Assembly (NCBI GenBank): GCA_035706005.1
Contig: DASSVO010000038.1
Location: 1,192-65,191 of the forward strand
Length of the DNA: 64,000 nt
Direction: 5' to 3'
Source of the DNA: Gaiellaceae bacterium
GTDB taxonomy: Bacteria > Actinomycetota > Thermoleophilia > Gaiellales > Gaiellaceae
Under the pieces are notes generated by a model, which worked only from the letters and a program-made list of their open reading frames with translations, ran no database searches and had not been told where the DNA came from. This document shows positions 19,467-25,262 of this stretch, one piece after another (the stretch's first letter is position 1; each line of letters begins with the position of its first letter). Made by a program: the position numbers and the translations under genes.

Positions 19467-19481
19467 GTAACAGCCTGTTAC
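19467..19481. promoter_or_regulatory. Perfect 15-bp palindrome GTAACAGCCTGTTAC
   Basis: Lies in the lower-GC convergent intergenic region. The 1-nt centre is too tight for an RNA hairpin, so a dimeric protein site is more likely. First of two copies. Confidence 0.45.
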
Positions 19482-19546
19482 TTAGTTGGACAGCGGCACG
19501 ATCGGACCTGTCCGGCGACTGGTCGCAAGCATCTCCAGGACAGCTT

Positions 19547-19561
19547 GTAACAGTCTGTTAC
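19547..19561. promoter_or_regulatory. Second copy of the palindrome, GTAACAGTCTGTTAC
   Basis: Lies 80 bp from the first copy. Both copies are followed by T(T)AG-N5-GACAG. Confidence 0.45.
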
Positions 19562-21275: not shown

Positions 21276-21383
21276 CTAGAAACCGCCCCCGCTGCTCATT
21301 CCGAAGCCGGGGTGACCGCAGGCCAGGATGAAGGCGAAGAGCGACGCGATGAACAAGAGAGAGATGAGCCGTGCTTTCGTCAA
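21276..21383 (-). CDS. 35-aa lipobox-like small secreted peptide ORF
   Basis: TTG 21383 lies 7 nt after GGAGG (the SD region reads AAAGGAGGTGAC) and 22 nt after the regulator stop. It translates (M)TKARLISLLFIASLFAFILAC|GHPGFGMSSGGGF. It is the 3' part of track ORF 21276..21461. Confidence 0.45.
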   Translation of the reverse strand: MTKARLISLLFIASLFAFILACGHPGFGMSSGGGF

Positions 21384-21405: not shown

Positions 21406-22755
21406 CTAGAAGCGGACGTCCTGAAGTGCCTCTGCAGCCCTGCGATAGAGCTCGGCTGCACGTGCGTGATCCCCCTGGCGGGCAGCGAGGTCGCCGCGCG
21501 CCATCCAGGCTGCGGCGCGGTGACTGCCTGACCCCAGCGTGCCGAAGCAGGCTTCGGCGTCGCGGAACGCAGCCTCGGCCTCGTCGAGCCGGTCTTGCTC
21601 GAGCAGTGCCCGGCCGAGCACGAGCTGCGCGTTTCCCATCTCGTCGACGTAGTCGACCCGGCCGTCGAGCAGCTCGAGCGCGTGACGCGCCTGCTCCTCT
21701 GCCTGATCGACGTTGCCCGTGCGCAGATGAACCTGCGCGAGGGACGAGACGGCGCGCCCGGCGTCGGCGTCCTGGCCGGCCTCGAGCGCGATCGAGAACG
21801 CCTCCTTGAGCAGCTCGACGGCGTCCTCCGTGTTCCCGAGCAGGAAGTTGAGTCCGCCGAGGTTGTTAGTCAGCTGCCCGACGTGGACGCGGTCGGCGAG
21901 CGCCGCGTACGCCTCGCGGGCCCGCTCCGCGTAGTTGCGCGCGAGCACCCAGCGGCCCTCGCGGTCGGCGACGAGCGAAGCCTGGAAGTAGGCGGCGCCG
22001 ACGGTGCGGAGGTCGTCGACGGCGTGGGCAAGCTCGAGCGCACGCTCCACGTCCTCCTTCGCCGCCTCGTAGTCGCGCTGGATGAGCCAGCAGCGGGCGC
22101 GCCAGGAGAGGATGTTCGCCTTCAGCGCATCGCACGGCAGGCCCGAGCGCTCCGCGAGCGTGAACGCCTCGTTGAGCAGGCCCAGCGCGGTCTGGATGCT
22201 GTTGAGCTGGACGCGGCAGCCGCCGAGCCGGAGCAGCACGTCCGCCCGCTCGACGTCGGAGAATGCCTCGGCCTCCGAGATCGCGCGCGCCTCGTTGAGG
22301 AGCACGAGGGCGGTGCGGTGCTGGCCGATGCGCATCTTCGCGAGCCCGGCCCCGACCAACGCGCGCACCTGCAGCTCGGGCACCCCGGTCGCGCGGGCAG
22401 CCGCGGGGAGCGGCTCGAACGCATCCGCCGCCTCCTCGTCCTCCTGCGCCTCGTACAACGCCTCGGCACGCGTAAGGGCCCCTTCGAGCCTGGCGCGCTC
22501 GTCGGTCGCAACGCCGTTCGCGAGAAAGCCTGCGTCGACTCCGAGACGGCCGGCGAGCCACTTGATCGTCTCCGCGGTCGGCCGCGTCTTGCCGCGCTCG
22601 ATCTGCGAGACGTATTCCTTGGAGAAGCGATCGCCGGCGAGCTCGCTCTGCGTCAGCCCGGCGGCAACGCGCAGCTGGCGAAGCCGTTCACCGAGGCGAA
22701 CGCCCTCGGGGCTGGTCCTGCGAGTGGTGCGGCTGGCTGTCTCTCGGATCGGCAT
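21406..22755 (-). CDS. HTH-XRE + TPR transcriptional regulator
   Basis: 449 aa. LGERLRQLRVAAGLTQSELA...YVSQIERGKTRPT is an XRE-type HTH, followed by multiple TPR-like repeats. Confidence 0.85.
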   Translation of the reverse strand: MPIRETASRTTRRTSPEGVRLGERLRQLRVAAGLTQSELAGDRFSKEYVSQIERGKTRPTAETIKWLAGRLGVDAGFLANGVATDERARLEGALTRAEALYEAQEDEEAADAFEPLPAAARATGVPELQVRALVGAGLAKMRIGQHRTALVLLNEARAISEAEAFSDVERADVLLRLGGCRVQLNSIQTALGLLNEAFTLAERSGLPCDALKANILSWRARCWLIQRDYEAAKEDVERALELAHAVDDLRTVGAAYFQASLVADREGRWVLARNYAERAREAYAALADRVHVGQLTNNLGGLNFLLGNTEDAVELLKEAFSIALEAGQDADAGRAVSSLAQVHLRTGNVDQAEEQARHALELLDGRVDYVDEMGNAQLVLGRALLEQDRLDEAEAAFRDAEACFGTLGSGSHRAAAWMARGDLAARQGDHARAAELYRRAAEALQDVRF

Positions 22756-22887
22756 GTCTCGGCGCGCCTAGTCAAGCGCATACTTCACTGAAGCGCAAGT
22801 TCAGGGGCTTGAACATCCCCCATTCGAGCGTATCCATCGGGAAAGTCGGTCAACCATGCGAACTGCACAATCACTTGACCGAGCTAC

Positions 22888-22916
22888 TTGACGAGTGCCG
22901 CAACCGCTCCTATAGT
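22888..22916 (+). promoter_or_regulatory. Near-consensus sigma-70 promoter (TTGACG-17 nt-TATAGT)
   Basis: -35 box at 22888-22893 and -10 box at 22911-22916 with an exact 17-nt spacer. This stands out in a 70% GC background. Confidence 0.5.
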
Positions 22917-22920
22917 GAGC

Positions 22921-23085
22921 GCACCTTGCAACCAGGCCGGACGCCAGGCCGAGGTTCGCAGGGGGTGCGCCGGGGCTCCCGGTAAGGACGGAAGCGGATG
23001 GGCCGCAGATCCGCCTCCACAATCCCGCCGAGAGTGGCGCACCTCTCGAGAAGGCCCCGGAGCCGCAGCCGGGGCCTTTTCTTTT
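22921..23085 (+). ncRNA. Candidate orphan small RNA (about 165 nt, family unknown)
   Basis: Bounded by the promoter above and an intrinsic terminator. Predicted helices are GGTGCGCC (22964-22971) / GGCGCACC (23036-23043) and GGAAGCGGAT (22990-22999) / ATCCGCCTCC (23009-23018). There is no credible ORF and no downstream plus-strand gene. Confidence 0.4.
23053..23085 (+). terminator. Intrinsic terminator
   Basis: GGCCCCGG (23053-23060), an 8-nt loop, CCGGGGCC (23069-23076), then TTTTCTTTT. Confidence 0.65.
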
Positions 23086-23220
23086 GGGCGCCTCGCCCGC
23101 TTCGCTTGCCCGGGCGCGCGCGCTTCGCGCGCGGGCGCGGGCTGCGCTGTGCTTTCCGCTCGCGCCGTGTGCCGCGCCCCGCGCATGTCGGTGCGCGGCA
23201 CGGAGCGGCGAAGCTCTAGC

Positions 23221-23817
23221 TCAACCTTTTAGCCAGGCGAGGCGGGCGGTTCGGATTGCCTGGAGCTCTCCGTCGTCGAGGAGGCCCACTCTTCTGCCGA
23301 CCATGCCGAGGATGCCGCCCGCGAGCATGATCCATGCCTCCGAGTCGGCGTCGCGCTCGCCGGCGATTGCTCCCTGCGTCTGGCCGCGGCGGATGAGGTC
23401 TGCGACGAAGTCGTGCACCTCGCGCATGTGGCGGCGCAGATGGCGGCGCAGGTCCGGGTCCTCCGAGGCCTCGCTCAGCGCCTGTACCCACAGCTCCGCG
23501 AGCTGGAGCTTCGGCGACCGGACCGACACGTGCCCCTTGCCGATCGCTTCGACGGCCGCGCACGCGTCGGGAGCCTCGTCGAGCGTCCGCTCCCAGGTTT
23601 CCCGGGTTTTCGCCCAGACGTGCTCGAGCGCCGCGAGGTAGAGGTCGCGCTTCGACGCGAAGTGGCGGTAGAGGATCGGCTCCGAGACGCCGGCGGCGCG
23701 CGCGATCTCCGCGGTCGTCGTGCCGTGGTAGCTCCCGTCGGTGAAGAGGCGGATCGCGGTCTCGACGAGATGCCGCCGCCGGTCGGCCGCCGCCATCCGC
23801 GGCGCCGCAGCTGTCAT
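23221..23817 (-). CDS. TetR/AcrR family regulator
   Basis: ATG 23817 overlaps the MFS stop (ATGA). The HTH reads TTTAEIARAAGVSEPILYRHFASKRDLY. Confidence 0.9.
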   Translation of the reverse strand: MTAAAPRMAAADRRRHLVETAIRLFTDGSYHGTTTAEIARAAGVSEPILYRHFASKRDLYLAALEHVWAKTRETWERTLDEAPDACAAVEAIGKGHVSVRSPKLQLAELWVQALSEASEDPDLRRHLRRHMREVHDFVADLIRRGQTQGAIAGERDADSEAWIMLAGGILGMVGRRVGLLDDGELQAIRTARLAWLKG

Positions 23818-25262
23818 GCCGCCATCTCCGCGAGGTGCTCCCGCACTACCTCGGGCCGCGTCCGCACGAGAACGATCGCAAGCGCAGCCGCGACGAACGT
23901 GATCGCTGCTCCGACCGCGAAGCCTGCGTGGAGGCCGTTGACGAAGTCCTGGGCGGCCGCCGGGCTCTGCGTCGGATGACGCTGGTACGCGGCGACGATC
24001 GCGCCCATCAACGCAATTCCGAGCGAGCCACCGACCTGGCGGAAGCTGTTGAGGACACCCGATCCCACCCCGGCCTTGTCGACCGGCACCGCCGCCATCG
24101 CCGCAGCGGTCATCGGCGACATCGTCATCGCCATCCCGACACCGCCGAGGAGCATCTGTGGCAGCAGCGTCCAGAAGTCGGAATGGACCGTGACGCGCTC
24201 GTAGAGCAGGAGCGAGATACCGACGAGCGTCATCCCGCCGCCCATCAGCCAGCGCGAGCCGAGGCGGTCCGAGAGCCTCCCCGCGAGCGGCGCGACGACG
24301 ATGATCAAGGTCGTCATCGGCAAGAACATCGCGCCCGCCTGGATCGCCGAGTAGCCGAGGATGCTCTGCACGTACAGGGACACGAAGAAGAAGACGCCGA
24401 ACATCGCGAGCGAGACGAGCATCGCCACGAGGTTCGCGCCCGTAAACGCGCCGATCCGGAATAGCGACAGGTCGAGCATCGCCAGGCGTTGCCGGAACTC
24501 GACGAGCACGAAGGCCCCGAGCAGAACCGCTGCCACGACGAAGAGGCCGAGGATCTCGGGCGAGGTCCACCCGTGACCGTTGCCCTCGATGAGAGCGTAG
24601 CTCAGCGCGAAGAGAAATCCGATCGACGTGACGAGCCCCGGAAGGTCGATGCTCTGCTCGGCAGACGTGTCGCGCGACTCGCGGATGACGAGCTGCGAGA
24701 CGAGGATGGCGAGCGCGCCGACCGGGACGTTGACGAAGAAGATCCAGTTCCAGTTCAACTTCTCGGCGATCAAGCCGCCGACGAGCGGGCCGATGGCGAG
24801 CGCGAGCGCCGATACGCCCGCCCAGATTCCGATCGCCTGCCCGCGCTGTCGCGGTGGGAAGGTGGCGGTGATGATCGAGAGCGTCGCCGGGTTCATGAGC
24901 GCGGCGCCGACGCCCTGCACCGCGCGCGCGCCGATGAGGAAGCCGGCGCTGGGAGCGAGGCCGCAGGCAAGCGACGAGAGCGTGAAGATCGCAAGGCCGA
25001 GCACGAAGATGCGCCGGCGGCCGTAGAGATCCGCGAGCTTGCCGCCGGTGATCAGGAGCGCCGCGAACGTCAGCGCGTACGCGGTGACGATCCACTCGAG
25101 CGACGACACCGACATGTGGAGGTCGCTCTTGATCGTCTGCAGCGCGACGTTCACGACCGTGTTGTCGAGCATGATCATGAAGAGGCCGAACGCGACCGCG
25201 AACAGCGTCCACCACTTCCGGTTCTCCTCTGCCGCCAGCGCGGCCAGCATCCTCGCTCTCAC
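23814..25262 (-). CDS. MFS transporter, DHA2 (EmrB/QacA-like, 14-TMS)
   Basis: 482 aa: LDNTVVNVALQTI, GKLADLYGRRR and many TM segments. GTG start. Confidence 0.9.
   Translation of the reverse strand: MRARMLAALAAEENRKWWTLFAVAFGLFMIMLDNTVVNVALQTIKSDLHMSVSSLEWIVTAYALTFAALLITGGKLADLYGRRRIFVLGLAIFTLSSLACGLAPSAGFLIGARAVQGVGAALMNPATLSIITATFPPRQRGQAIGIWAGVSALALAIGPLVGGLIAEKLNWNWIFFVNVPVGALAILVSQLVIRESRDTSAEQSIDLPGLVTSIGFLFALSYALIEGNGHGWTSPEILGLFVVAAVLLGAFVLVEFRQRLAMLDLSLFRIGAFTGANLVAMLVSLAMFGVFFFVSLYVQSILGYSAIQAGAMFLPMTTLIIVVAPLAGRLSDRLGSRWLMGGGMTLVGISLLLYERVTVHSDFWTLLPQMLLGGVGMAMTMSPMTAAAMAAVPVDKAGVGSGVLNSFRQVGGSLGIALMGAIVAAYQRHPTQSPAAAQDFVNGLHAGFAVGAAITFVAAALAIVLVRTRPEVVREHLAEMAA

What the first reader, a model, noticed from the sequence alone, without database searches (positions are those of the whole stretch)
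22888..23085. Orphan structured small RNA candidate with a consensus promoter and intrinsic terminator
In the 465-bp gap between the XRE-TPR gene and the TetR gene, a TTGACG-17 nt-TATAGT promoter is followed after about 165 nt by a textbook terminator (GGCCCCGG-loop-CCGGGGCC-TTTTCTTTT). Both signals are conspicuous in 70% GC DNA.

The interval has no credible ORF and no plus-strand gene downstream, so it is not a leader or riboswitch. It can form an 8-11-bp closing helix (22961-22971 / 23036-23046) around two hairpins. The 5' GCGCACC (22919-22925) is an alternative partner for GGTGCGC.

I could not match it to SRP, 6S, tmRNA, RNase P, 6C or tRNA-Sec by eye. It is transcribed divergently from the candidate quorum regulator.
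Basis: seen in the sequence. Interest (0 to 1): 0.6.

Follow-up and report, generated by a model that had tools for sequence, protein, structure and literature searches.

The report
Regulator-coupled small RNA of Gaiellaceae
This is a real, undescribed ~165-base non-coding RNA gene that occurs once per genome in the soil actinobacterial family Gaiellaceae, always back to back with a peptide-sensor-type regulator gene, so it is probably that regulator's dedicated output.

Summary
Window 22888-23086 carries a TTGACG-17-TATAGT promoter, about 165 nt without a conserved ORF, and a hairpin plus U-tract terminator.

The RNA has three hairpins. Compensatory changes support them, and their loops are almost invariant (GACGCCAG, uGGGCCGCAGa, AGCCGCAG). 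It matches no Rfam 15 family, and a separate 6S candidate lies elsewhere in the genome.

A covariance model finds one copy per genome in 108 of 150 Gaiellaceae genomes, a lower bound. It finds none in 105 genomes of four other families of the order.

In 99 of the 103 hits I compared, the XRE-TPR regulator gene lies divergently 87-321 nt away. Three of the other four were shown adjacent earlier. None of the 7 genomes without the regulator has the RNA.

A tandem box, ATCACTTGAC-N5-TACTTGAC, overlaps the -35 element. It occurs once per genome, only at this promoter. A sister family keeps the regulator and the box, spaced 10 bp wider, in front of a different structured RNA.

Best reading: a trans-acting RNA output of a peptide-signalling-like cassette.

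The scan found this RNA before on other genomes (e1-3107465, e1-4074383, e1-4417508).

The parts
22848..22855 (-). Inverted TTGAC-type box (GGTCAACC; GGTTGACC on the minus strand). It is probably the -35 region of the XRE-TPR gene's own promoter and a third copy of the box motif.
   Evidence: It is conserved at about the same distance from the tandem box in the 48 loci. In several genera it reads as an exact inverted ACTTGAC. Its function is inferred.
22870..22879 (+). Upstream box ATCACTTGAC, the distal half of the tandem direct repeat. It is a candidate operator or activator site.
   Evidence: It is nearly invariant across 17 genera at a fixed 13-nt register from the -35 box. The tandem box is unique in the own genome and occurs once in each of four single-contig genomes, always at this promoter. 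In a scan of 185,579 species genomes, 77 of 80 fetched hits have the RNA just downstream.
22885..22893 (+). Proximal box TACTTGAC, overlapping the -35 hexamer TTGACG (22888-22893).
22911..22916 (+). -10 hexamer TATAGT. The start site is inferred at about 22921-22924.
   Evidence: The hexamer is conserved in nearly all homologues. The start site has not been mapped.
22924..22963 (+). Hairpin P1: CCUUGCAACC / GGUU(C)GCAGGG plus an inner GGCC/GGCC stem. The loop carries GACGCCAG (22940-22947).
   Evidence: In the 48-sequence alignment, 8 of 10 outer pairs and 3 of 4 inner pairs show double changes. GACGCCAG is present in 45 of 48 homologues.
22962..23046 (+). Hairpin P2, a long irregular hairpin of about 85 nt. 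Its closing helix is GGGGUGCGCC / GGCGCACCUC. The apical stem is GCGGAU / AUCCGC (22994-22999 / 23009-23014), with loop GGGCCGCAG (23000-23008).
   Evidence: Compensatory changes occur in the closing and apical helices on the MAFFT-only alignment and on the model-fitted alignment. 40 of 48 homologues fold independently to this topology.
23050..23086 (+). Hairpin P3, the intrinsic terminator. The stem is (AGAA)GGCCCCGG / CCGGGGCC(UUUU), the loop is AGCCGCAG (23062-23069), and the U-tract is 23078-23086.
   Evidence: Stem and loop are nearly invariant, with double changes at 5 of 9 pairs. The loop with its flanking bases (RRGCCGCAGC) is present in 44 of 48 homologues.
21406..22755 (-). XRE-HTH plus TPR regulator gene (449 aa), the divergent partner of the RNA gene.
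   Evidence: Pfam finds HTH_31/HTH_3 plus TPR families. The gene is adjacent and divergent in all 50 loci first examined and in 99 of 103 family hits.
21276..21383 (-). 35-codon ORF after the regulator gene (MTKARLISLLFIASLFAFILACGHPGFGMSSGGGF), preceded by the SD GGAAAGGAGG. It encodes a candidate exported signal peptide.
   Evidence: A small ORF with the same K-A-R-L plus hydrophobic N-terminus and a strong SD follows the regulator in 12 of 12 loci checked.

Best explanation
Window 22921-23086 (+) encodes a stand-alone non-coding RNA of about 165 nt. A near-consensus promoter drives it and an intrinsic terminator ends it.

The RNA folds into three hairpins: P1, a long P2, and the terminator P3. 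Their stems vary by compensatory changes, while their loops stay fixed across the family Gaiellaceae (GACGCCAG, uGGGCCGCAGa, AGCCGCAG).

Its promoter carries a tandem direct repeat, ATCACTTGAC-N5-TACTTGAC, that overlaps the -35 element and is found nowhere else in the genome.

Inferred: the divergently encoded XRE-TPR regulator, which is co-transcribed with a small exported-type peptide gene, binds these boxes. The RNA would then be the dedicated output of that peptide-signalling-like cassette. Because the core promoter is already near-consensus, control by repression with peptide-dependent release seems likelier than activation.

Inferred more weakly: the RNA acts in trans through its three exposed invariant loops. 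They would pair with CUGCGGC-type sequences in target RNAs or dock a protein.

Shown: the gene, its structure, its conservation, the linkage, and the uniqueness of the box.
Not shown: transcription, regulator binding, and the target.
For: Promoter and terminator.

No known family: no Rfam match even at E up to 10. The best hit is 23 bits against a 50-bit cut-off and covers the terminator only.

Structure:
- On the MAFFT-only alignment of 19 genus sequences, 95.3% of cells are paired against 33-58% when partners are slid. 11 pairs show double changes, and 0 of 500 shuffles reach the covariation score.
- On 48 sequences from 17 genera, 92.5% are paired against 32-54% slid, with 28 of 38 pairs showing double changes.
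- 40 of 48 sequences fold independently to the same topology.
- Loops are invariant: GACGCCAG in 45 of 48 and two GCCGCAG motifs in 47 of 48.

Not coding: ORF frames and lengths are not conserved, and some homologues have no plus-strand ORF at all.

Distribution:
- One copy in the own genome.
- 24 of 24 genus genomes by DNA search.
- 108 of 150 family genomes and 44 of 64 genera under strict filters. Genomes without a hit still carry diverged copies.
- 0 of 105 genomes in four other families of the order.

Linkage to the regulator:
- The gene is divergent and adjacent in all 50 loci and in 99 of 103 family hits, at 87-321 nt.
- The other flank changes between genera.
- None of the 7 family genomes lacking the regulator has the RNA. 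G097, 99% complete, lacks both.

Box:
- It is unique in the own genome.
- It occurs once in each of four closed genomes, always at this promoter.
- Of 80 loci picked by the box alone among 185,579 species genomes, 77 have the RNA about 27 nt downstream.
- In sister family f5, the orthologous regulator (44-49% identity, 43 of 45 genomes) faces the same box motif, spaced 23 instead of 13 nt, in front of a different structured RNA.
Against:
- Synteny in this family is conserved in general. TetR also stays downstream in about two thirds of loci, so adjacency alone is weaker than it looks.
- XRE/RRNPP regulators usually bind inverted repeats as dimers, not direct repeats.
- No conserved target was found. 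The best complementary site in the own genome, at the PPDK start codon, is not conserved in 29 relatives.
- The cassette's own mRNAs hold no conserved CUGCGGC.
- Tandem CUGCGGC sites are not enriched in the genome.
- The covariation counts rest on a model-fitted alignment.
Confidence: 0.55

Rival explanations
1. Protein-binding or sequestering RNA. The three hairpins display related invariant loops as repeated docking sites for one RNA-binding protein, as in CsrB/RsmZ, rather than pairing with mRNAs. The protein could even be the TPR regulator itself. The RNA would still be the regulator-coupled output.
For: Two loops share the exact heptamer GCCGCAG, and all three loops are invariant across 17 or more genera while the stems drift. 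No conserved complementary target was found. From general knowledge, untested here: Actinomycetota are reported to lack Hfq and CsrA, which leaves room for an unknown partner.
Against: No candidate RNA-binding protein is encoded in the conserved neighbourhood. Hairpins with a GCCGCAG loop are not enriched elsewhere in the genome (8.1% against 7.8-10.4% for control motifs), so there is no sign of a wider set of RNAs for such a protein. Loop-presented seeds of 7-10 nt are equally typical of base-pairing sRNAs.
Confidence: 0.2
2. Housekeeping or otherwise regulator-independent RNA. Its position next to the XRE-TPR gene would be inherited synteny, and the boxes would be promoter elements for RNA polymerase or another factor.
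For: It is single-copy, family-wide and has a near-consensus promoter that could be constitutive. Local synteny is conserved in general; TetR is also retained in many loci.
Against: - A separate 6S candidate exists (G000:C53:11228-11385; the G151 copy scores 59.2 bits, above the cut-off), and no Rfam family matches.
- The RNA is restricted to one family.
- It is never found without the regulator.
- It stays with the regulator when the other flank changes.
- The box is unique in the genome, so it is not a general promoter element.
- The sister family keeps the regulator and the box but has a different RNA.
- A 1.9-Mb genome keeps a 76-nt version that lacks P2, which is unusual for an essential RNA.
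Confidence: 0.12
3. Cis-acting element: a leader, attenuator or riboswitch for a downstream gene, or an antisense RNA to a neighbour.
For: In some genera a co-oriented gene follows (an AzlC-like gene 37 nt downstream in L039, an AMP-binding enzyme in L036). Paralogous copies in one genus lie upstream of sodA. Note e1-4050079 reports a YjbR-like gene 15 nt downstream in another genome.
Against: In this window, and by the tblastn strand in every locus where TetR was found (about two thirds of the 50), the next gene is convergent. The identity of the downstream gene varies. The transcript ends 135 nt before the TetR stop codon and does not overlap the XRE gene.
Confidence: 0.05
4. Small-protein gene, or no functional RNA at all. 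In the second case only the DNA signals would matter, for example divergent-promoter interference with the regulator gene.
For: ORFs of 30-58 codons can be drawn in this GC-rich stretch.
Against: ORF frame, start and length are not conserved; several homologues have none; and length differences are not multiples of three. Compensatory base changes preserve RNA helices, which a DNA-only or coding constraint does not explain.
Confidence: 0.03

Closest known systems
agr locus of Staphylococcus aureus (P2 agrBDCA / P3 RNAIII)
   Same: A peptide-signalling operon and a structured regulatory RNA are transcribed divergently from one short control region that holds tandem direct-repeat regulator sites. 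The RNA is the main effector and uses C-rich hairpin loops. This comparison rests on established knowledge, not on a test here.
   Different: RNAIII is 514 nt, encodes delta-haemolysin and is activated by the two-component response regulator AgrA. Here the regulator is a cytoplasmic XRE-HTH plus TPR protein and the RNA is about 165 nt and non-coding. There is no sequence or structural homology (no Rfam hit).
Arbitrium AimR-AimP-aimX of SPbeta-group Bacillus phages (RRNPP family)
   Same: It has three parts: an HTH-TPR peptide receptor, a small exported pro-peptide gene directly after it, and a short non-coding transcript whose promoter is the receptor's single dedicated DNA target.
   Different: aimX lies downstream and co-oriented, and the system is phage-borne in Firmicutes. 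Here the RNA is divergent and chromosomal, vertically inherited in Actinomycetota, and strongly structured with covariation. Peptide sensing has not been shown.
PrgX / prgQ-Anti-Q control region of Enterococcus plasmid pCF10
   Same: An RRNPP-type regulator gene is divergent from a promoter that makes a small regulatory RNA. The regulator has two binding sites, one of which overlaps the -35 element.
   Different: prgQ RNA encodes the inhibitor peptide and is countered by an overlapping antisense RNA. Here there is no overlap, no coding capacity, and the peptide gene follows the regulator gene.
Regulator-dedicated sRNAs with conserved upstream boxes (CiaR-csRNAs of streptococci; GacA-RsmY/RsmZ of pseudomonads)
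   Same: The sRNA promoters are marked by a conserved regulator box at a fixed register, a direct repeat in the case of CiaR. The sRNAs are the principal regulon output and carry repeated loop motifs.
   Different: Those regulators are two-component response regulators and the sRNAs occur in several copies. Here there is one copy, an XRE-TPR partner and a different loop motif.
6C RNA (RF01066) of Actinomycetota
   Same: A small actinobacterial RNA with conserved C-containing hairpin loops and an intrinsic terminator.
   Different: No match to the Rfam model even at E up to 10. The loops are GCCGCAG/GACGCCAG rather than C-runs. The RNA is restricted to one family and coupled to a regulator.

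Membership tests
Any Rfam 15 family (4227 models, including 6S, 6C, SRP, tmRNA, RNase P, ctRNA) | A score at or above the family's gathering threshold. | tested here: not met
   The best hit is ctRNA_p42d at 23 bits against a 50-bit cut-off, and it covers the terminator only. No family reaches its cut-off in 22000-24000, even at E up to 10.
6S RNA (RF00013) | It would be the genome's 6S homologue: a long closed helix with a central bubble, usually one per genome. | tested here: not met
   A different locus is the 6S candidate: G000:C53:11228-11385 at 32.9 bits over the full model length. The orthologous hit in G151 scores 59.2 bits, above the cut-off. This RNA folds as three separate hairpins.
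Independent bacterial sRNA gene | Its own promoter and a Rho-independent terminator, with no conserved ORF. | tested here: met
   Promoter, terminator hairpin plus U-tract, both conserved in homologues, and no conserved ORF.
Independent bacterial sRNA gene | A transcript of the predicted size is detected. | not testable with these tools
Structured RNA family (Rfam-type criterion) | A conserved secondary structure supported by compensatory substitutions across species. | tested here: met
   alignment not fitted to a model; 48 sequences, 28 of 38 pairs with double changes; independent folds.
RRNPP-type peptide-signalling cassette with an RNA output (arbitrium-like) | An HTH plus TPR cytoplasmic receptor with a small exported pro-peptide gene next to it. 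| tested here: met
   Pfam finds HTH_31/HTH_3 plus TPR families. A 35-codon ORF with an SD and a hydrophobic N-terminus follows the gene, and the same arrangement is conserved in 12 of 12 loci. Homology of the receptor to RRNPP proteins was not tested here.
RRNPP-type peptide-signalling cassette with an RNA output (arbitrium-like) | The receptor binds the RNA promoter and the peptide modulates that binding. | not testable with these tools
   There is indirect support only: a box unique in the genome that overlaps the -35 element, strict co-occurrence, and the box kept with the regulator in the sister family.
Riboswitch or cis-regulatory leader | It lies upstream of, and is co-oriented with, a consistent regulated gene, and has alternative terminator/antiterminator pairings. 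| tested here: not met
   The downstream gene is usually convergent and its identity varies. The proposed alternative pairing is not supported.

The most novel reading that the evidence does not exclude
The RNA is the sole direct target and effector of a peptide quorum-sensing-like circuit (an RRNPP-style HTH-TPR receptor plus an exported mini-peptide) that is native to and vertically inherited in uncultured soil Actinomycetota. Cell-cell peptide signalling there would be relayed entirely through one structured RNA with three invariant loops.

The module would also be evolvable by effector swapping. The sister family keeps the receptor and operator, re-spaced by one helical turn, but drives an unrelated structured RNA.
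Probability: 0.3. Interest if true: 0.8.

Novelty: new variant of a known kind. Interest (0 to 1): 0.6.

Why it matters
- Gaiellaceae are abundant soil bacteria, and the public genomes fetched here are all labelled as MAGs. I found no described regulatory RNA for them: there is no Rfam match, and two literature searches returned nothing relevant.
- Here a family-wide, single-copy, covariation-supported RNA is physically and evolutionarily locked to an HTH-TPR regulator and a mini-peptide gene. To my knowledge, that layout is so far described only in Firmicutes and their phages.
- If the link is functional, it would extend RRNPP-like peptide signalling with an RNA effector to Actinomycetota.
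- It offers a compact, testable circuit: one operator, one RNA and three loop motifs.
- It gives a natural example of a regulator keeping its operator while the RNA output is replaced.
- It also supplies a new RNA family for databases and for annotating soil metagenomes.

Tried and rejected
- **Known RNA family:** Rfam at E up to 10 gave nothing. 6S was rejected because another locus is the 6S candidate.
rejected.
- **Two hairpins inside the P2 closing helix:** a local CCGG...CCGG hairpin is possible by eye. However, 40 of 48 independent folds give one extended hairpin. I did not resolve whether both conformations exist.
- **PPDK target prediction:** the best complementary site to loop 2 in the own genome is AUCUGCGGCCCC directly before the PPDK start codon. 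It is not conserved in 29 relatives and was rejected.
- **Other candidate sites, not tested for conservation:** two CUGCGGCAC repeats in the 5' UTR of a secreted S8 protease (C5:14243), and GGAGCUGCGGCCC-AUG at C57:3966.
- **Enrichment tests:** tandem CUGCGGC sites are not enriched against control heptamers. No conserved CUGCGGC or CUGGCGUC occurs in the XRE-TPR/peptide mRNA. GCCGCAG-loop hairpins are not enriched genome-wide.
- **Homology of the sister-family RNA:** R1 with filters off finds nothing in 12 f5 loci. I therefore treat it as a positional analogue.
- **Coding potential:** rejected.
- **Literature:** no paper links RRNPP, Actinobacteria and small RNA, and none describes a Gaiella non-coding RNA.

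Full report
**What is there**

Between the start of the minus-strand XRE-HTH/TPR gene (21406-22755) and the stop of the minus-strand TetR gene (23221) lies a 465-bp gap.

On the plus strand it holds TTGACG (22888-22893), a 17-nt spacer and TATAGT (22911-22916). This is the only sigma-70-like site in 22000-24000, where shuffles give a mean of 0.1.

About 140 nt downstream lies a terminator: GGCCCCGG, loop AGCCGCAG, CCGGGGCC, then TTTTCTTTT (23054-23086). The consensus scanner did not list this terminator. RNAfold folds it as a 13-bp hairpin, and the whole transcript folds better than all 200 shuffles (z = -3.85).

**Not a known RNA**

cmscan against Rfam 15 at E up to 10 gives only sub-threshold hits. 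The best is ctRNA_p42d at 23 bits against a 50-bit cut-off, and it matches the terminator alone.

A separate 6S candidate lies at G000:C53:11228-11385. Its counterpart in relative G151 passes the Rfam cut-off at 59.2 bits. This RNA is therefore not the genome's 6S.

Two literature searches found nothing relevant.

**Conservation**

A DNA search of 40 relatives found the region in 24 of 24 genomes of the genus. The conserved block starts exactly at the upstream box and ends at the terminator.

I built covariance model R1 from 19 genus sequences. Its results:

| Search | Result |
|---|---|
| Own genome | one hit |
| Family genomes in an order-wide draw | 38 of 45 |
| Four other families of the order | 0 of 105 |
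| Family-wide draw, strict filters | 108 of 150 genomes, 44 of 64 genera |

Nearly every positive genome has a single hit. The family figure is a lower bound. Genomes with weak or no hits still carry recognisable diverged copies behind the same promoter. One of these is a 76-nt version without P2, in a 1.9-Mb genome (L054).

Record titles of loci found by the box pattern name Gaiellaceae, Gaiellales or Thermoleophilia MAGs.

**Structure**

The RNA has three hairpins.

- **P1 (22924-22963).** Its loop carries GACGCCAG.
- **P2 (22962-23046).** This is a long irregular hairpin with apical loop GGGCCGCAG.
- **P3 (23050-23086).** This is the terminator, with loop AGCCGCAG.

On the MAFFT-only genus alignment, 95.3% of cells pair, against 33-58% when partners are slid. 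Eleven pairs show changes on both sides, and 0 of 500 shuffles reach the covariation score.

On 48 sequences from 17 genera, an alignment fitted to the model and so biased towards it, 92.5% pair against 32-54% slid. 28 of 38 pairs have double changes, and these now include P1.

As a check independent of any alignment, 40 of 48 sequences fold on their own to the same three-hairpin topology.

The loops stay fixed while the stems drift. GACGCCAG is present in 45 of 48 and two GCCGCAG motifs in 47 of 48.

The "two inner hairpins" are better read as one long hairpin. The alternative 5' pairing has no support.

No ORF is conserved in frame, start or length.

**Coupling to the regulator**

- In all 50 loci first examined, the XRE-TPR gene is the divergent neighbour. 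Protein identity falls as low as 48%.
- TetR is downstream in only about two thirds of these loci, and the downstream gene otherwise varies.
- In the family-wide draw the regulator is present in 143 of 150 genomes.
- In 99 of the 103 RNA hits I compared, the regulator lies divergently 87-321 nt away. Three of the other four were shown adjacent earlier. The fourth sits at a contig end.
- None of the 7 genomes without the regulator has the RNA. G097, 99% complete, lacks both.
- A mini-peptide ORF with a strong SD follows the regulator gene in 12 of 12 loci.

**The promoter box**

Upstream of and overlapping the -35 element lies ATCACTTGAC-N5-TACTTGAC. It is invariant in register across genera.

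An inverted TTGAC-type box lies about 20 nt further upstream, probably at the regulator's own promoter.

- The tandem box occurs once in the own genome. No other ACTTGAC there has a -10 element at promoter distance.
- It occurs once in each of four single-contig genomes, always at this promoter.
- A scan of 185,579 species genomes with the box alone returned at least 120 loci, of which 80 were fetched. 77 of those 80 have the RNA starting about 27 nt downstream. Two of the remaining three are cut by the locus end.

**The sister family**

The regulator orthologue (44-49% identity) is also present in 43 of 45 genomes of family f5. It was not found in families f2-f4. Outside the order it is nearly absent in the class: 3 of 36 genomes in one family, at about 30% identity.

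In f5 the upstream region has TACTTGAT-N15-TACTTGAC-N17-TAnnnT. The same box motif is therefore spaced 23 instead of 13 nt, one helical turn more.

A different RNA of 135-210 nt follows. Its 3' hairpin covaries. It has no Rfam hit and is not detected by R1 with filters off.

The box thus travels with the regulator rather than with the RNA. This is the strongest indirect argument that the regulator acts at this promoter.

**Mechanism**

Shown: a structured, non-coding, single-copy RNA gene locked to the regulator, behind a box that is unique in the genome.

Inferred: the XRE-TPR protein binds the boxes. The core promoter is near-consensus and one box overlaps the -35 element, so repression relieved by the peptide seems likelier than activation.

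Inferred more weakly: the RNA acts in trans through its three invariant loops.

I could not find a target:
- The best complementary site, at the PPDK start codon, is not conserved.
- The cassette's own mRNAs have no conserved site.
- There is no enrichment of tandem sites or of GCCGCAG-loop hairpins.

A protein-docking role therefore remains a serious rival.

**Earlier work in this scan**

The same RNA family was flagged on other genomes and followed up with the same reading (e1-3107465, e1-4074383, e1-4417508). First readers alone noted it in three more genomes. Those notes are not independent evidence. I re-derived conservation, structure and linkage here.

- the genome-wide uniqueness of the tandem box;
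- the box-selected sample;
- the co-absence data;
- the re-spaced box with a different RNA in the sister family;
- the mini and paralogous variants.

**Verdict**

This is a new RNA family of a known general kind, a regulator-coupled sRNA, in an unusual setting.

My confidence in each part:

| Claim | Confidence |
|---|---|
| A real structured RNA gene | about 0.95 |
| Controlled by the neighbouring regulator | about 0.7 |
| Trans-acting through loop pairing | about 0.4 |

Noticed in passing
window 23089-23203: A GC-rich stretch of about 70-115 nt directly after the sRNA terminator is a dispersed repeat in the genus. Relatives hold up to about 14 copies per genome (for example G010). The incomplete own assembly holds only one.
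   Followed up: partly
L069-L080 (family f5 genomes, upstream of the XRE-TPR orthologue): A different structured RNA of 135-210 nt sits behind the same box motif, spaced 23 nt. It has a 5' ACAACGCGAnGACGGC, an optional CCGGUGGGCCGCCGG hairpin and a covarying 14-bp 3' hairpin with loop ACUGGAGCC. It has no Rfam hit and no obvious U-tract. In some genomes a plus-strand ORF follows.
   Followed up: partly
L082 (G087:C99) and L087 (G148:C5): Genus g17 carries a second XRE-TPR copy. It has a degenerate box and a shorter RNA that keeps the GGGCCGCAG-loop hairpin, directly upstream of a superoxide dismutase (sodA-like) gene.
   Followed up: no
L054 (G046:C1:179902-179977): A 1.9-Mb family genome has a 76-nt mini version of the RNA, with P1 and the terminator only and P2 deleted, behind the same promoter and regulator.
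   Followed up: partly
G000:C4:10647 and 11159 (minus strand): The 5' end and upstream region of the pyruvate phosphate dikinase gene is duplicated 512 nt apart, which may be an assembly artefact or a real tandem duplication. Across the family a conserved TGGGAAGAT motif lies about 10-25 nt upstream of the PPDK start.
   Followed up: no
G000:C53:11228-11385 (minus strand): A candidate 6S RNA (32.9 bits, full model length, below the Rfam cut-off). The orthologous hit in G151 passes the cut-off.
   Followed up: partly
G000:C8:24647 and G000:C65:15731: These are the only two other TTGACx-17-TATAGT promoters in the assembly. They could drive further unannotated RNAs or highly expressed genes.
   Followed up: no
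G000:C5:14243 (minus strand): The 5' UTR of a secreted S8 (subtilisin-like) protease gene carries two CUGCGGCAC repeats 11 nt apart, about 30-50 nt upstream of its SD. They are complementary to the GCCGCAG loops of the sRNA. Their conservation was not tested.
   Followed up: no
G000:C23:2722: GTAACAGACTGTTAC palindromes flank a short region containing CTGCGGCCCGCTGCGGC. This is the same motif another note reported at window 19467-19561.
   Followed up: no
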